Source of the DNA: an uncultured Gammaproteobacteria bacterium
GTDB lineage: Bacteria; Patescibacteriota; Microgenomatia; Levybacterales; GWA1-39-11
Length of the DNA stretch: 64,000 bases
Reading direction: 5' to 3'
NCBI GenBank assembly: GCA_964504535.1
Contig: CAZDED010000001.1
Location: forward strand, 37,804-101,803
Below the pieces are notes generated by a model that had not been told where the DNA came from, searched no databases, and saw only the letters and a list, made by a program, of their open reading frames with translations. Below are positions 61,736-63,548 of this stretch, one piece after another. The position numbers were made by a program, and so were the translations under genes. Position 1 is the stretch's first letter, and each line of letters starts with the position of its first letter.

Positions 61736-61982
61736 AATTATGAAAATTTCAATTTTTGAAATAATCTTGAGGTTAGGGGTGTAAAGCTTAAACTCATAGT
61801 ATTTGATTTTATTTATCTCCAATTATATAATACCATCACGTTTTTATTCCAAACCAAGAGTTTTATCTGCTTAAAACATTCACGTTCGGAAATAAAACCA
61901 ACGCACCTTGAAATCATATTCTTGCAAGATCAAACTTATTGATCGCAGTCTCGCCGAAGCTTTAACGGAGGCGGATACTAGT

Positions 61983-62028
61983 TTTCGCTCGCTGAGAAGA
62001 GAATCTCTTGTCTTCTGAGCGAGCGAAA
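61983..62028. promoter_or_regulatory. long imperfect inverted repeat (18-bp arms, 10-nt spacer) immediately upstream of the alpha-CTD-like gene
   Basis: TTTCGCTCGCTGAGAAGA gaatctcttg TCTTCTGAGCGAGCGAAA; 17/18 complementary positions. Confidence 0.5.
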
Positions 62029-62060
62029 GCTTATAAAATTACGCCTAAGGAGAAAAATTG

Positions 62061-62390
62061 ATGACAATCCAATTGGAAGGCACTTCCATCGGAGAGTTGG
62101 GCTTCTCCAACCGGGTGTACAACACCCTGAAGAGAAACGGCATTCCGACTGTGGAGATTCTTCTCACAAAATCCAAAAAGGAGTTGATGGAACTTCGTAA
62201 TTTCGGAAAAAAGTGCTATGCTGAAGTGCATGGACTTCTGTCCGAACTGGAGCTGATCGACCACAACGAGGAAGACATTATCCTCATGCCCGAAGTCCTG
62301 AAGCGCAACACTGAGGGTGGGCACAGGTTGCAACTCTATATCCTGTCTCAAGCACTGAAAAGGGTAGCCCGCTACGGAGACTCTTCATAA
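62061..62390 (+). CDS. standalone RNA-polymerase-alpha C-terminal-domain (alpha-CTD, HhH)-like protein
   Basis: IGELGFSNRVYNTLKRNGIPTVEILLTKSKKELMELRNFGKKCYAEVHGLLSELEL follows the RpoA alpha-CTD pattern (L.LS.R..N.LK...I.T...L...SE.EL....N.GKKSL.E....L...GL); SD AAGGAG 8 nt upstream; lies in a locally high-G+C segment. Confidence 0.65.
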   Translation: MTIQLEGTSIGELGFSNRVYNTLKRNGIPTVEILLTKSKKELMELRNFGKKCYAEVHGLLSELELIDHNEEDIILMPEVLKRNTEGGHRLQLYILSQALKRVARYGDSS

Positions 62391-62440
62391 CTAACGACCT
62401 GTTCGGGGCAACCCGGACCCAAAACGCTGAGGACGCACAA

Positions 62441-62881
62441 TTGAAGAAGATTCTAGTTCTGATCCTGGTCATCGTGGCCACATTCTTCACCGCTTGCGGC
62501 GATGGGTCTGATGAAAGCCCCAAGCCAACCTCCAATGGTTGGCTTACAGCCTTTGCCGTGATAGGTGAGGACAACAACTTCCCCTCAGTCGATGAATCCT
62601 GCTGGGACTGGTTTCCAGAAGGCGATGGCGTCTTTTGGATGATCACCAACGGCAGCAGTGGACAAGCCCTGACCTTTCCATTCCGAAGCGTAGAAAAGGG
62701 GAGTGCACTCATCGAAGAACTGGGCAGGATCAAAAACGGAGATGTGGTTTACGTAAAGAACACAAACGGTATCCAACCCATCTTCAAGATCATCGAGATC
62801 GACCCTGTCAAAGGAGGCGTAAGAGTAGCCCCTACAGGCAACGCCACAGGCAACTGCAAGCCAACTGGGTCGACCGCCTGA
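62441..62881 (+). CDS. putative lipoprotein
   Basis: Signal peptide MKKILVLILVIVATFFTAC with lipobox-like TAC; high-G+C segment. Confidence 0.5.
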   Translation: MKKILVLILVIVATFFTACGDGSDESPKPTSNGWLTAFAVIGEDNNFPSVDESCWDWFPEGDGVFWMITNGSSGQALTFPFRSVEKGSALIEELGRIKNGDVVYVKNTNGIQPIFKIIEIDPVKGGVRVAPTGNATGNCKPTGSTA

Positions 62882-62978
62882 CAAGATCAGGCAAGAATGT
62901 GACAGCGTAACCGCTGCAAGGTGTACCCGGGGGAGGCAAGGATCGAGTTTGACTCGACGTCCTTTCTTCCCCCATACA

Positions 62979-63548
62979 CTAAATTGGGCGGGCAAATACA
63001 AGTAACCGCTTCAGTGCAGTCCCTACCGGAGTACACGTTTGAAGAATTAATATATCCCCCTGATCCTCTTTTAAATACTTCACTTCATTTGGCCAAACTG
63101 TTTTTTTATCATAGACCTTGTACCTATATTCTTTCCCATCTTTTCTAACTATAATAATGTTCCCCTTTTTAACAAAATCCAATCTAAAAAATGCGGTGTT
63201 ATAACGAGTTATTCTCCATGGAACATCTGATGAGTGGGCAAAAAAATACATGCTGCCTTTTTGACCAGGCAGACTCGTTCCTTTTGCTTGTGCTACCCCA
63301 TTTTTTAACTTTTCAATATACTCTTGCTGATTGAAAGGATCAACATTTGCAATAACTGGTGAAAAAACCTTTATTGAGGGGATTTCTATAGAAAACCCAG
63401 CACTTTTCTTCTGCGCTTCCGTAAAGTGAGGTGGAAAGAAAAATTCTTTCAGAACTGGGTAATAAATAAACAAAATCCCCAGCAAAGAAATTGCGATTAG
63501 AATATTTCCAATTTTTTTTCTCATAGATAAACCGTATTTTACCATCAA
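62979..63548 (-). CDS. sortase family transpeptidase (second copy)
   Basis: N-terminal TM; SMYFFAHSS (His) and ILILQTCTP (TLxTC) motifs; start may be the internal ATG at 63524. Confidence 0.75.
   Translation of the reverse strand: MMVKYGLSMRKKIGNILIAISLLGILFIYYPVLKEFFFPPHFTEAQKKSAGFSIEIPSIKVFSPVIANVDPFNQQEYIEKLKNGVAQAKGTSLPGQKGSMYFFAHSSDVPWRITRYNTAFFRLDFVKKGNIIIVRKDGKEYRYKVYDKKTVWPNEVKYLKEDQGDILILQTCTPVGTALKRLLVFARPI

What the first reader, a model, noticed from the sequence alone, without database searches (positions are those of the whole stretch)
61935..63050. About 1-kb high-G+C cassette: standalone RNA polymerase alpha-CTD-like protein + lipoprotein, preceded by an 18-bp-arm hairpin
G+C rises visibly (roughly above 50% versus below 40% in flanks) exactly over two plus-strand genes inserted among minus-strand sortase/LPXTG genes. 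The first (109 aa) is essentially an isolated alpha-CTD HhH domain (IGELGFSNRVYNTLKRNGIPTVEILLTKSKKELMELRNFGKKCYAEVHGLLSELEL) with a ~45-aa tail. Free alpha-CTD-like proteins could compete for UP elements or activator contacts. A near-perfect 18-bp inverted repeat sits 30 nt upstream of its start codon. This looks like a recently acquired regulatory module.
Basis: partly seen in the sequence, partly recalled or inferred. Interest (0 to 1): 0.65.

Follow-up and report, generated by a model that had tools for sequence, protein, structure and literature searches.

The report
Swappable G+C-rich small-gene islet
A 1.25-kb, compositionally foreign mini-operon sits between two surface-protein genes of an uncultured A+T-rich bacterium; it carries a free copy of the DNA-binding tail domain of RNA polymerase alpha plus a secreted lipoprotein, and close relatives swap its genes like cassettes or lack it entirely.

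Summary
G+C is 0.504 over 61935-63050 against 0.388±0.021 elsewhere (z 5.6). GC3 is 0.62 and 0.61 for the two genes against 0.31±0.04 for host genes. ORF1 is a genuine alpha-CTD domain (Pfam E 3.6e-16; model about 1 Å from solved alpha-CTDs). The upstream hairpin is real and covaries.

"Recently acquired regulatory module" is only partly right. The unit is a self-promoted operon, 61730-62978, always in one intergenic site between a 200-aa secreted-protein gene and the sortase gene. Related lineages carry different contents in that site, and every content is G+C-rich: alpha-CTD plus lipoprotein, Zn-ribbon plus membrane peptide, other small ORFs, a second alpha-CTD, or no alpha-CTD. Two lineages have an empty site. 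Genomes 98-99.8% identical in their flanks differ by the whole islet or by the cargo alone. One cargo swap breaks exactly at the Shine-Dalgarno motif and at a 3' inverted repeat. Cistrons are separated by short covarying hairpins.

No phage, plasmid, integron, defence or Rfam match was found. The islet is best read as a modular accessory operon exchanged by recombination. The alpha-CTD protein is probably a small DNA-binding or RNAP-mimicking factor, but its function is untested.

The parts
61070..61681 (+). Left flank: gene for a 200-aa secreted repeat protein (core gene, not part of the islet)
   Evidence: ORF. It is present next to the site in all relatives, including the empty-site alleles. 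No Pfam or NCBIfam family.
61694..61729 (+). Terminator-like hairpin of the left-flank gene; marks the left boundary of the islet
   Evidence: Inverted repeat I3, 16-nt arms, 88% complementary. The corresponding hairpin is the last sequence shared between island-bearing L012 and empty-site L030.
61730..62978 (+). The whole islet: promoter, structured leader, two cistrons, 3' structures. Absent from the empty-site relatives.
   Evidence: In L030 an 80-nt spacer replaces the 1487-nt island of L012, with flanks 99.76-99.85% identical. L032 is also empty.
61803..61831 (+). Sigma-70-like promoter, TTGATT-17-TATAAT
   Evidence: 10 of 12 match. TTGA(C/T)T and TATA(A/C)T are conserved at the same place in eight of the nine lineages examined; L020 diverges. 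Transcription was not measured.
61860..61877 (+). Small A+U-rich hairpin in the 5' UTR
   Evidence: RNAalifold pairs 25-31 with 38-44; one G-C to A-U compensatory pair. Weak on its own (z -1.5).
61903..61924 (+). Left copy of the two-block inverted repeat (GCACCTT, 4 nt, TCATATTCTTG) in the 5' UTR
   Evidence: (I2). Conserved in all island variants. It occurs only at the island in all loci held.
61926..61977 (+). Roughly 50-nt lineage-specific insertion in the leader (window and L008 only)
   Evidence: Alignment A1, columns 270-320, and A8.
61980..62031 (+). Leader hairpin: 14 bp, a conserved G.G mismatch, 6 bp, variable tip
   Evidence: z -6.65. Covariation on 9 lineages: 98.3% of cells paired, 9 of 20 pairs changed on both sides, 0 of 500 shuffles reach this, slid registers 33-56% paired. 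G.U pairs form only when the + strand is read.
62047..62052 (+). Shine-Dalgarno AAGGAG of ORF1; this strain's degenerate copy of the family motif GCCTGAGGAGGGCA
   Evidence: Sequence; motif alignment.
62061..62390 (+). ORF1: 109-aa standalone alpha-CTD-like protein (HhH domain at residues 8-65, plus a conserved tail ELID.NEEDI.LMPEVLKRN...)
   Evidence: Pfam, PDB sequence match, AF2 model and Foldseek. dN/dS 0.14-0.44. DNA-contact residues aligned.
62391..62440 (+). Intercistronic punctuation: CTAACGACC, hairpin 62401-62418 (GUUCGGG-GCAA-CCCGGAC), CCAAAAC, then SD TGAGGAC
   Evidence: for the fold. The same layout, with different covarying stems, precedes most downstream cistrons in the relatives.
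62441..62881 (+). ORF2: 146-aa probable lipoprotein or secreted beta-rich protein, TTG start, two conserved Cys. This is the variable cargo slot.
   Evidence: Alignment A6 with invariant DESCWDW, C54 and C139. dN/dS 0.14-0.27. AF2 model is all-beta, pLDDT about 90 over residues 80-130, with no fold match.
62891..62902 (+). Right copy of the inverted repeat (GCAAGAATGTGA); right breakpoint of cargo swaps
   Evidence: L041 and L007 become homologous again exactly here.
62903..62916 (+). Small hairpin CAGCG-UAAC-CGCUG between the two right-hand repeat blocks
   Evidence: Other lineages have different stems at the same place (CGGC/GCCG, TCCCTC/GAGGGA).
62920..62980 (+). Long 3' hairpin (GGUGUA..GGGGGAGG...CCUUUCUUCCCCC.UACAC). 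It ends the operon, has no U-tract, and its base overlaps the sortase stop codon.
   Evidence: z -4.98. Conserved in 8 lineages, with 5 compensatory pairs in the apical helix.
62979..63548 (-). Right flank: sortase gene (core gene, not part of the islet)
   Evidence: PF04203, E 3.3e-24, full-length match. Adjacent to the site in all relatives.

Best explanation
The feature is a strain-variable accessory operon (an "islet") of foreign base composition. It occupies one intergenic site between two convergent surface-protein genes in an uncultured, roughly 39% G+C bacterium.

Layout. It carries its own sigma-70-type promoter and a structured leader of about 220 nt. It holds a short row of small cistrons and ends in a long 3' hairpin. 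Each cistron is preceded by the same punctuation: a short G+C hairpin plus a conserved Shine-Dalgarno block.

Content in this genome. The row is (1) a 109-aa free alpha-CTD-like helix-hairpin-helix protein and (2) a secreted lipoprotein-like beta protein.

How it changes (shown by comparison):
- The whole islet is gained or lost by homologous recombination in the flanking core genes.
- In the one same-species cargo swap examined, the breakpoints lie at the SD block and at the right inverted repeat. A duplicated SD block also flanks an extra ORF in L012.
- As a result, near-identical genomes carry different cargo.

What is inferred, not shown:
- The cistrons are co-transcribed from the conserved promoter.
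- The hairpins act at the RNA level, in processing, stability or translation.
- The alpha-CTD-like protein binds A+T-rich DNA like the real alpha-CTD, or mimics it towards activators or RNAP. On this reading it is a small regulator of the islet or of neighbouring surface-protein genes. The swapped cistrons would supply envelope-associated accessory functions.
For: Composition.

Same site, different contents:
- window and L001-L006: alpha-CTD + lipoprotein
- L007 and L008: alpha-CTD + Zn-ribbon + membrane peptide
- L015: alpha-CTD + 113-aa protein
- L012: 100-aa membrane ORF + alpha-CTD + 163-aa protein
- L018 and L029: divergent alpha-CTD + two paralogous ORFs
- L041: alpha-CTD + membrane peptide + second alpha-CTD
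- L019 and L020: no alpha-CTD, lipoprotein present
- L030 and L032: empty

All cargo ORFs read in frame have GC3 0.42-0.68, against 0.31 for host genes.

Within-species polymorphism:
- L012 against L030: flanks 99.8% identical, island against an 80-nt spacer. The divergent tract runs about 45 nt into the sortase 3' end.
- L041 against L007: 98% identical up to "...GAGGAGG" and again from "AAGAATGTGA", non-homologous in between.
- A duplicated CCTGAGGAGGGCAC flanks the extra ORF in L012.

Horizontal movement: alpha-CTD dS between L012 and L007 is 0.20, against 1.51 for their sortase genes.

The genes are real: dN/dS is 0.14-0.44 for alpha-CTD and 0.14-0.27 for the lipoprotein.

Structured punctuation:
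- leader hairpin covariation
- intercistronic hairpins with different stems in the same frame
- 3' hairpin
- promoter conserved

Alpha-CTD identity and DNA-contact residues.

Not an assembly artefact: the same junctions occur in 14 contigs from independent samples and assemblers.
Against: - No transcription, RNA-processing or protein data exist. The promoter, co-transcription and RNA-level role of the hairpins are inferred from conservation only.
- The source of the G+C-rich gene pool is unknown. GC3 stays at 0.58-0.62 in alpha-CTD across lineages with dS up to 1.25. Simple "old insertion drifting towards host composition" does not explain this.
- DNA binding by the alpha-CTD-like protein is not secure. 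The L018 copy has lost the G296 and K297 equivalents, and the second copy in L041 has lost the R265 equivalent. The most conserved part of the family is the tail, which has no known homologue and a low-confidence model (pLDDT 42-66).
- The two-block inverted repeat that brackets the variable part has no established role. Its covariation is weak.
- Recombination at 11-25-bp motifs without a dedicated enzyme is assumed. No recombinase was seen within ±10 kb.
Confidence: 0.6

Rival explanations
1. One reading: a cassette recently acquired from a phage or plasmid. Its free alpha-CTD acts as a decoy, competing with RNAP alpha for UP elements or activators.
For: - Foreign GC3.
- Horizontal movement between lineages.
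- DNA-contact residues are kept in the window's copy.
- A phage precedent for a non-RpoA alpha-CTD protein exists: Bacillus phage Goe8, 210 aa.
Against: - No DNA or protein relative of the cassette was found in phage, plasmid or viral-contig collections, beyond generic alpha-CTD domain hits.
- The full-length family is a single 50%-identity cluster among 1.84 billion representatives. Every member traced to a contig lies at this one chromosomal site.
- The gene's divergence roughly tracks that of the flanks.
- The two genes are not a fixed unit.
Confidence: 0.15
2. An integron-like or other site-specific cassette platform: cassettes are inserted and excised by a dedicated recombinase acting on the hairpins or inverted repeats. 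This would resemble a cluster of attC sites without an integrase (CALIN), or a new analogue.
For: - A promoter-proximal array of small, promoterless ORFs of unknown function, separated by hairpin-forming elements whose structure rather than sequence is conserved.
- Precise cargo breakpoints at conserved motifs.
- Cargo composition differs from the host.
- The lipoprotein cassette appears in different array positions.
Against: - No integrase or other recombinase within ±10 kb in L001 or L007.
- The intercistronic hairpins are 16-20 nt, not 55-140 nt. By inspection of the sequences they lack the RYYYAAC and GTTRRRY cores; no attC model was run.
- The hairpin lies upstream of each ORF, fused to its SD, not downstream.
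- The G.U pairs point to + strand RNA rather than recombination substrates.
- The array is only 2-3 ORFs long.
Confidence: 0.1
3. A non-autonomous transposon with terminal inverted repeats (TCACATTCTTG ... CAAGAATGTGA) that carries passenger genes.
For: A conserved inverted repeat brackets exactly the G+C-rich, variable part. This is 61903-62924 in the window, G+C 0.499 measured over 61906-62926. Both copies coincide with boundaries of variable segments.
Against: - The repeat occurs only at this site in every locus held, up to 64 kb.
- There is always one site and one orientation.
- The empty allele lacks the promoter and the 3' hairpin outside the repeats as well, with no target duplication.
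- No transposase is present.
- The mismatches between the arms are G.U-compatible on the + strand.
Confidence: 0.05
4. A small toxin/immunity, exclusion or defence module. The many tiny membrane peptides would be the effectors, and the alpha-CTD-like protein the regulator or antitoxin. The 5'-3' repeat would act like the fold-back pairing of hok-type mRNAs.
For: - The cargo is rich in 50-100-aa membrane peptides, a Zn-ribbon and an anti-sigma-like zf-HC2 ORF.
- Presence/absence polymorphism and rapid turnover are typical of such modules.
- An alpha-CTD-like segment occurs in the BREX kinase PglW.
Against: - PADLOC gives only that domain-level hit, and nothing for any cargo.
- The window's own version has no membrane peptide, only a lipoprotein.
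- No antisense RNA or toxin family was recognised.
Confidence: 0.1

Closest known systems
C-terminal domain of bacterial RNA polymerase alpha subunit (Pfam PF03118; e.g. B. subtilis alpha-CTD in 1Z3E/3GFK, E. coli alpha-CTD in 1LB2/3K4G)
   Same: Same fold and an ungapped 57-residue alignment. The window's copy keeps the equivalents of E. coli R265, N268, G296 and K298, the residues known to contact UP-element DNA (residue roles are from established literature).
   Different: There is no alpha N-terminal domain and no linker. The gene is not in the rpsM-rpsK-rpsD-rpoA-rplQ context. It has an unrelated conserved 45-aa tail. It is dispensable, since it is absent from same-species genomes. C269 and S299 are replaced by T and C.
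Other non-RpoA proteins with alpha-CTD-like domains: multi-repeat alpha-CTD proteins, Bacillus phage vB_BmeM-Goe8 Goe8_c00050 (210 aa), and a segment of the BREX kinase PglW
   Same: The domain is reused outside RpoA: 3105 cluster representatives match at E ≤ 0.001, many with 2-10 repeats. Examples occur in a phage and in PglW.
   Different: None shares the tail or the genomic context. The full-length family is one 50% cluster. The literature searches made here did not find a described function for any of them.
PeSL regulatory cassettes of hyperplastic regions in T4-type phages (Arbiol et al. 2010, PMC2839356; PMC4122927)
   Same: Small non-essential ORFs of unknown function are separated by short conserved regulatory motifs that include stem-loops. 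Recombination between these motifs produces insertions, deletions and replacements between near-identical genomes. That is the pattern seen for L041/L007 and in L012.
   Different: PeSLs combine a promoter with a terminator stem-loop and lie in phage genomes. Here the motif is a hairpin plus Shine-Dalgarno block without a promoter, under one upstream promoter, in a bacterial chromosome at a single site. Mini-circles were not looked for.
Integron cassette arrays and CALINs
   Same: A promoter-proximal row of promoterless, compositionally odd small ORFs, separated by elements conserved in structure rather than sequence, with strain-level turnover.
   Different: No IntI, no attI and no attC-like sites in size or core sequence. 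The hairpins precede the ORFs and appear to act as RNA.
Genomic islets at intergenic recombination hot spots between conserved core genes
   Same: Presence/absence and replacement alleles are exchanged through homology in flanking core genes, with deviant G+C.
   Different: There is an internal modular punctuation and a conserved structured leader and trailer. These are kept across variants whose coding content is unrelated.

Membership tests
RNA_pol_A_CTD domain (PF03118) | Profile match above Pfam's gathering score | tested here: met
   59.1 bits against a 23.8 cut-off, E 3.6e-16, residues 8-62 on profile positions 13-67 of 67.
RNA_pol_A_CTD domain (PF03118) | Compact helical alpha-CTD fold with two helix-hairpin-helix motifs | tested here: met
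   AF2 model has pLDDT 82-91 over residues 10-65. Top Foldseek hits are all RNAP alpha-CTDs: rmsd 0.8-1.7 Å over 52-63 residues, TM (target) up to 0.89.
RNA_pol_A_CTD domain (PF03118) | DNA-contact residues of the "265 determinant" (E. coli R265, N268, C269, G296, K298, S299) | tested here: inconclusive
   The window's copy has R18, N21, G49 and K51, but T22 and C52. The L018 copy lacks the G296 and K297 equivalents, and the second copy in L041 lacks the R265 equivalent. Binding was not measured.
RpoA (RNA polymerase alpha subunit) | N-terminal dimerisation/assembly domain, full length of about 310-340 aa | tested here: not met
   The protein is 109 aa. NCBIfam rpoA equivalog models match only their last ~60 positions, at 34-52 bits against cut-offs of 228-523.
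RpoA (RNA polymerase alpha subunit) | Essential, single-copy, in the ribosomal-protein/rpoA operon | tested here: not met
   The gene lies between a secreted-protein gene and sortase. It is absent from L030, whose flanks are 99.8% identical to L012, and from L019 and L020.
Integron / CALIN | IntI tyrosine recombinase next to the array (not required for a CALIN) | tested here: not met
   No integrase-family Pfam hit among called genes within ±10 kb in L001, L002 or L007.
Integron / CALIN | attC sites: 55-140-nt imperfect palindromes with R''/R' cores (RYYYAAC / GTTRRRY) downstream of each ORF | tested here: not met
   The intercistronic hairpins are 16-20 nt, lie upstream of each ORF and lack the cores. 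This is by inspection; no attC covariance model was run.
TIR transposon / MITE | Multiple copies, target-site duplication, variable insertion sites | tested here: not met
   The repeat occurs only at this locus in the window and in all 45 loci held. The empty site shows no duplication. Only up to 64 kb per genome was examined.
PeSL-type modular shuffling (works like, not a sequence family) | Replacement breakpoints between near-identical genomes coincide with short repeated regulatory motifs | tested here: met
   In L041 against L007 the breakpoints fall at the SD motif and at the right inverted repeat. In L012 the insertion is flanked by duplicated CCTGAGGAGGGCAC.
PeSL-type modular shuffling (works like, not a sequence family) | The motif contains a promoter plus a terminator; circular excision products exist | not testable with these tools
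   No promoter-like hexamers were seen in the 50-nt junctions (one search lists none there).
Bacterial lipoprotein (ORF2) | Signal peptide followed by a lipobox Cys | tested here: inconclusive
   MKKILVLILVIVATFFTAC|G reads as n-region, h-region and F-T-A-C. Three of four homologues keep the Cys; P0158 does not. No dedicated predictor was available.
Known anti-phage defence systems (PADLOC) | Match to a defence protein model | tested here: not met
   The only hit is a 20.5-bit domain-level match of ORF1 to an internal segment of PglW. Eight cargo proteins gave nothing.

The most novel reading that the evidence does not exclude
The site is a dedicated cassette-exchange platform of a new kind. 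A conserved promoter, leader and trailer, bracketed by the TCACATTCTTG/CAAGAATGTGA repeat, would capture and express small G+C-rich genes. These genes would be pre-formatted with a hairpin + SD punctuation and drawn from a pool maintained outside the A+T-rich chromosome, which would explain why GC3 stays near 0.6 despite dS around 1. The alpha-CTD-like protein would be the platform's own DNA- or RNA-binding factor rather than a transcription decoy. This would be a functional analogue of integrons, without a tyrosine recombinase, in a reduced-genome uncultured lineage.
Probability: 0.15. Interest if true: 0.75.

Novelty: new variant of a known kind. Interest (0 to 1): 0.5.

Why it matters
Three things would follow if this holds.

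1. It gives a compact natural example of modular gene shuffling in a bacterial chromosome. The exchange points are short regulatory motifs (hairpin + Shine-Dalgarno block, and an inverted repeat), not genes or classical recombination sites. The analogy with integron cassettes and phage PeSLs could be tested in an uncultured, probably reduced-genome lineage.

2. It isolates a free alpha-CTD-like protein that is dispensable and evolves quickly. Its most conserved part is an unknown 45-residue tail. That makes it a tractable entry point to the large, uncharacterised set of non-RpoA alpha-CTD proteins (3105 cluster representatives).

3. Synonymous G+C is about double the host value and stays so across lineages separated by synonymous divergence near saturation. 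Ordinary drift of transferred genes towards host composition does not explain this. It points to an unseen gene pool, or to a local mutation or selection regime.

The practical reach is modest. The family is confined to one site in one group of uncultured bacteria, and no function is demonstrated.

Tried and rejected
- Rfam, whole window at gathering threshold and 61650-63100 at E ≤ 10: only chance miRNA-like hits on the hairpin. Six relatives gave nothing.
- Nucleotide search of the cassette in phage and plasmid collections: no match.
- Protein-level search in the same collections: only generic alpha-CTD hits. The plasmid hits are ordinary rpoA in an rpsD-rpoA-rplQ context. One real phage case exists, Goe8, 210 aa.
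- IMG/VR scans with the alpha-CTD alignment, the lipoprotein alignment and the 3' motif: none, or chance 16-mers without the hairpin.
- PHROGs, PADLOC and NCBIfam on all cargo proteins: nothing above noise. The best weak hints were TFIIB-type Zn-ribbon (E 8e-6, below cut-off), DUF4177 (E 0.01) and anti-sigma zf-HC2 (E 0.008).
- Split-rpoA idea: rejected, because the islet is absent from same-species genomes. There is no other alpha-CTD and no rpoA in the window.
- Idea that the sortase 3' end was brought in with the islet: rejected, because the empty-site allele encodes the same C-terminus with similar codons.
- L024 as a second genomic site: rejected. It is the same neighbourhood, with a sortase downstream and an extra epimerase gene in between.
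- L033/L034 (sortase 43% identical): the G+C-rich stretch there is an unrelated minus-strand secreted-protein gene.
- Long-range 5'-3' RNA pairing of the inverted repeat: 88.6% paired, but almost invariant, so unresolved.
- Literature searches for standalone alpha-CTD proteins: nothing relevant.
- Organism identity: only one label was found, "uncultured Gammaproteobacteria" on MAG contig CAZEGF010000006.1. I doubt it given the gene content, but it could not be checked.

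
Full report
**1. What is in the sequence**

The composition claim is correct. G+C over 61935-63050 is 0.504. All other 1.1-kb windows have mean 0.388, sd 0.021 and maximum 0.445, so z = 5.6. The difference lies at synonymous sites:
- GC3 is 0.62 for ORF1 and 0.61 for ORF2.
- Neighbouring genes have GC3 0.28-0.33.
- 38 host ORFs of at least 200 aa have GC3 0.31±0.04.

ORF1 (62061-62390, 109 aa) matches Pfam RNA_pol_A_CTD at E 3.6e-16. 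It aligns without gaps over 57 residues to the B. subtilis alpha-CTD. Its AF2 model has pLDDT 82-91 over the domain and lies about 1 Å from solved alpha-CTDs. Residues 66-109 form a tail with no known relative and a low-confidence model.

ORF2 (62441-62881, TTG start, 146 aa) begins with a signal peptide and an F-T-A-C lipobox-like motif. It has two conserved cysteines. Its model is confident and all-beta, but matches no known fold.

The hairpin has arms at 61980-62003 and 62008-62031. Its fold has z = -6.65.

The window is an ordinary bacterial chromosome segment. It carries rpoB, rpoC, fusA, ftsK, nusA, infB and pnp. It has no rpoA and no second alpha-CTD.

**2. The unit is larger than the finding, and it is an operon**

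Upstream of the G+C-rich part lies an A+T-rich stretch (61730-61934) with a TTGATT-17-TATAAT promoter at 61803-61831. This promoter is conserved in position and sequence in eight of the nine relatives examined.

Downstream of ORF2 come, in order:
- a conserved GCAAGAATGTGA (62891-62902);
- a small hairpin (62903-62916);
- a long hairpin (62920-62980, z -4.98). Its base overlaps the sortase stop codon.

Between the two ORFs lies CTAACGACC, then a 7-bp GCAA-loop hairpin (62401-62418), then CCAAAAC, then the SD.

**3. Relatives: one site, many contents**

The full-length ORF1 family is tiny. There are five 90% clusters, and one 50% cluster among 1.84 billion representatives. The bare domain is common, with 3105 representatives, many of them multi-repeat.

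Every family member traced to a contig lies between the same 200-aa secreted-protein gene and the same sortase gene. In every lineage the interval is G+C-rich. The content differs:

| Locus | Content of the site |
|---|---|
| window, L001-L006 | alpha-CTD + lipoprotein |
| L007, L008 | alpha-CTD + Zn-ribbon + membrane peptide |
| L015 | alpha-CTD + 113-aa DUF4177-like protein |
| L012 | 100-aa membrane ORF + alpha-CTD + 163-aa protein |
| L018, L029 | divergent alpha-CTD + two paralogous ORFs |
| L041 | alpha-CTD + membrane peptide + a second, divergent alpha-CTD (P0049) |
| L019, L020-23, L024 | lipoprotein without any alpha-CTD |
| L030, L032 | empty: only a terminator between the two convergent genes |

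All cargo ORFs read in frame have GC3 0.42-0.68.

**4. How it changes**

*Whole-islet polymorphism.* L012 (islet present) and L030 (empty) are 99.76-99.85% identical in 5 kb of flanks. At the site, 1487 nt in L012 stand against 80 nt in L030. The divergent tract extends into the upstream terminator and about 45 nt into the sortase 3' end. That is the signature of allele replacement by homologous recombination in the flanks, not of site-specific insertion.

Consistent with import, the L012 alpha-CTD gene is close to that of L007 (dS 0.20), while their sortase genes are far apart (dS 1.51). The sortase tree places L012 outside the group that holds L007.

*Cargo-only replacement.* L041 and L007 are 98% identical through the flanks, leader and alpha-CTD gene, up to "...GAGGAGG". 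They are 98% identical again from "AAGAATGTGA" onward. In between there are 619 nt in L041 and 393 nt in L007, with no homology.

In L012 the extra upstream ORF is flanked by a duplicated CCTGAGGAGGGCAC. So in the two cases that could be resolved, the exchange points are the SD block and the right repeat.

*Selection.* The genes are under purifying selection. dN/dS is 0.14-0.44 for alpha-CTD and 0.14-0.27 for the lipoprotein, against 0.06-0.11 for sortase.

**5. Structured punctuation**

- *Leader hairpin.* It is present in all variants, including those without alpha-CTD. On nine lineages, 98.3% of cells pair and 9 of 20 pairs show changes on both sides. No shuffle of 500 reaches the observed values, and slid registers pair at only 33-56%. 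A G.G mismatch is conserved. The tip varies and tolerates a roughly 110-nt insertion in L019. G.U pairs occur only when the + strand is read. This points to an RNA structure in the 5' UTR.
- *Intercistronic hairpins.* They have unrelated stems (GUUCGGG/CCCGAAC, UCGCG/CGCGA, CCCCGC/GCGGGG, UCCCGA/UCGGGA, CCCGCC/GGCGGG) in the same frame.
- *3' hairpin.* It is conserved, with compensatory changes in its apical helix.
- *Two-block inverted repeat.* GCACCTT..TCACATTCTTG lies in the 5' UTR, and CAAGAATGTGA..AAGGTGT lies after the last ORF. It brackets exactly the variable part and is unique to the site. It is nearly invariant, so covariation cannot decide between 5'-3' RNA pairing and a DNA-level role.

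**6. What it most likely does**

*Shown:* this is a dispensable, horizontally exchanged, modular operon.

*Inferred:* it is transcribed from its own promoter. The hairpins act on the transcript, in processing, stability or translation.

ORF1 binds DNA in the alpha-CTD manner or mimics alpha-CTD. The window's copy keeps R18, N21, G49 and K51, which correspond to E. coli R265, N268, G296 and K298. Two divergent copies have lost some of these residues, and the most conserved segment is the tail. The decoy or UP-element idea is therefore plausible but not secure.

The cargo consists of membrane peptides, a lipoprotein, a Zn-ribbon and an anti-sigma-like zinc finger. Together with the position among sortase and surface-protein genes, this suggests envelope-related accessory functions.

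**7. Comparison with known systems**

- It is not RpoA.
- It is not an integron. There is no IntI within ±10 kb, and the hairpins are too short, lack the attC cores and sit on the wrong side of the ORFs.
- It is not a multicopy TIR element.
- It is not a known defence system.
- It is not in Rfam.
- It is not on known phages or plasmids.

[quoted passage not shown] It also resembles islets exchanged at intergenic hot spots.

**8. Open puzzle**

GC3 of the alpha-CTD gene is 0.58-0.62 in all seven lineages, although dS between them reaches 0.4-1.25. All unrelated cargo genes share the high GC3. If these genes simply resided in a genome with GC3 of 0.31, they should have drifted towards it. Three explanations remain open: the pool is maintained elsewhere, exchange is frequent enough to reset composition, or selection or biased conversion acts on this locus.

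**9. Verdict**

This is a new variant of a known kind, a modular and recombination-exchanged accessory islet, with an uncharacterised free alpha-CTD protein. Interest is moderate, at 0.5.

Noticed in passing
L007 11597-11890; L012 5658-5951; L018 8047-8403; L041 3852-4145. Absent from window 63549-63584.: A 97-aa GIY-YIG gene sits between the sortase gene and the next surface-protein gene in several relatives but not in the window. In those relatives the N-termini of the longest sortase and GIY-YIG ORFs read through a repeated element, giving peptide strings such as MLRFARNDKLRAT and ARNLSLRAKRSNL. This looks like a second, independent insertion polymorphism next door.
   Followed up: no
L019 ~195-300; L024 ~20-60: The tip of the leader hairpin carries an insertion containing ...CTGTCATCCTGAGTATAGCGAAGGATC... 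(L019) or ...CTGTCATTGCGAGG...GCGAAGCAATC... (L024). It resembles the repeat associated with the GIY-YIG gene. A small palindromic mobile repeat appears to have landed inside the hairpin loop without disrupting the stem.
   Followed up: partly
window 62284-62733 (-): A 149-aa minus-strand ORF overlaps both islet genes. Gene callers annotated it in L001 and L002 in place of the lipoprotein gene. It is probably spurious: the plus-strand gene is conserved under purifying selection.
   Followed up: partly
window 61070-61681 and 63585-63995 onward: The flanking genes encode repetitive Asn/Thr/Gly-rich secreted proteins. The 200-aa protein has two internal repeats and a CGC motif. The protein after sortase ends in a hydrophobic anchor preceded by LPMTG. 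Neither has a Pfam family. Together with sortase they look like a surface-fibre or pilus locus.
   Followed up: no
window 34139-36403 (-): A 754-aa protein has a Baseplate_J-like domain (E 2.6e-8), which suggests a phage-tail-like or contractile-injection gene cluster around 31-42 kb.
   Followed up: no
window 6954-8735 (-) and 13855-15552 (-): A 593-aa fusion of CoA-ligase and citrate-synthase C-terminal domains (ATP-citrate-lyase-like), and a 565-aa protein with a MATCAP-like peptidase domain. Both are unusual for a small A+T-rich genome.
   Followed up: no
window 1-64000: No Rfam family reaches its gathering score anywhere in the 64 kb. That means no tRNA, rRNA or riboswitch model hit.
   Followed up: no
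L018 (CAZEGF010000006.1): The MAG that holds the locus is labelled "uncultured Gammaproteobacteria bacterium". The gene content includes sortase with LPXTG-type substrates, a 485-aa IF2 and a 336-aa NusA. That does not look gammaproteobacterial, so the label is probably wrong.
   Followed up: no
L046 (Bacillus phage vB_BmeM-Goe8, record 1959-2591): A 210-aa phage protein annotated "RNA polymerase subunit alpha" carries an alpha-CTD-like C-terminus, and the record has a second matching place. This is an example of a mobile-element-encoded non-RpoA alpha-CTD protein.
   Followed up: partly
P0006-P0016: Many proteins of 300-1000 aa contain 4-10 tandem alpha-CTD-like repeats. The literature searches made here did not find this architecture described.
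   Followed up: no
L007 10422-10577; L008 4228-4386: The 52-aa Zn-ribbon cargo protein gives its best, sub-threshold Pfam hit to the TFIIB-type zinc ribbon (E 8e-6). This is a second transcription-factor-like mini-domain in the same slot as the alpha-CTD islet.
   Followed up: no
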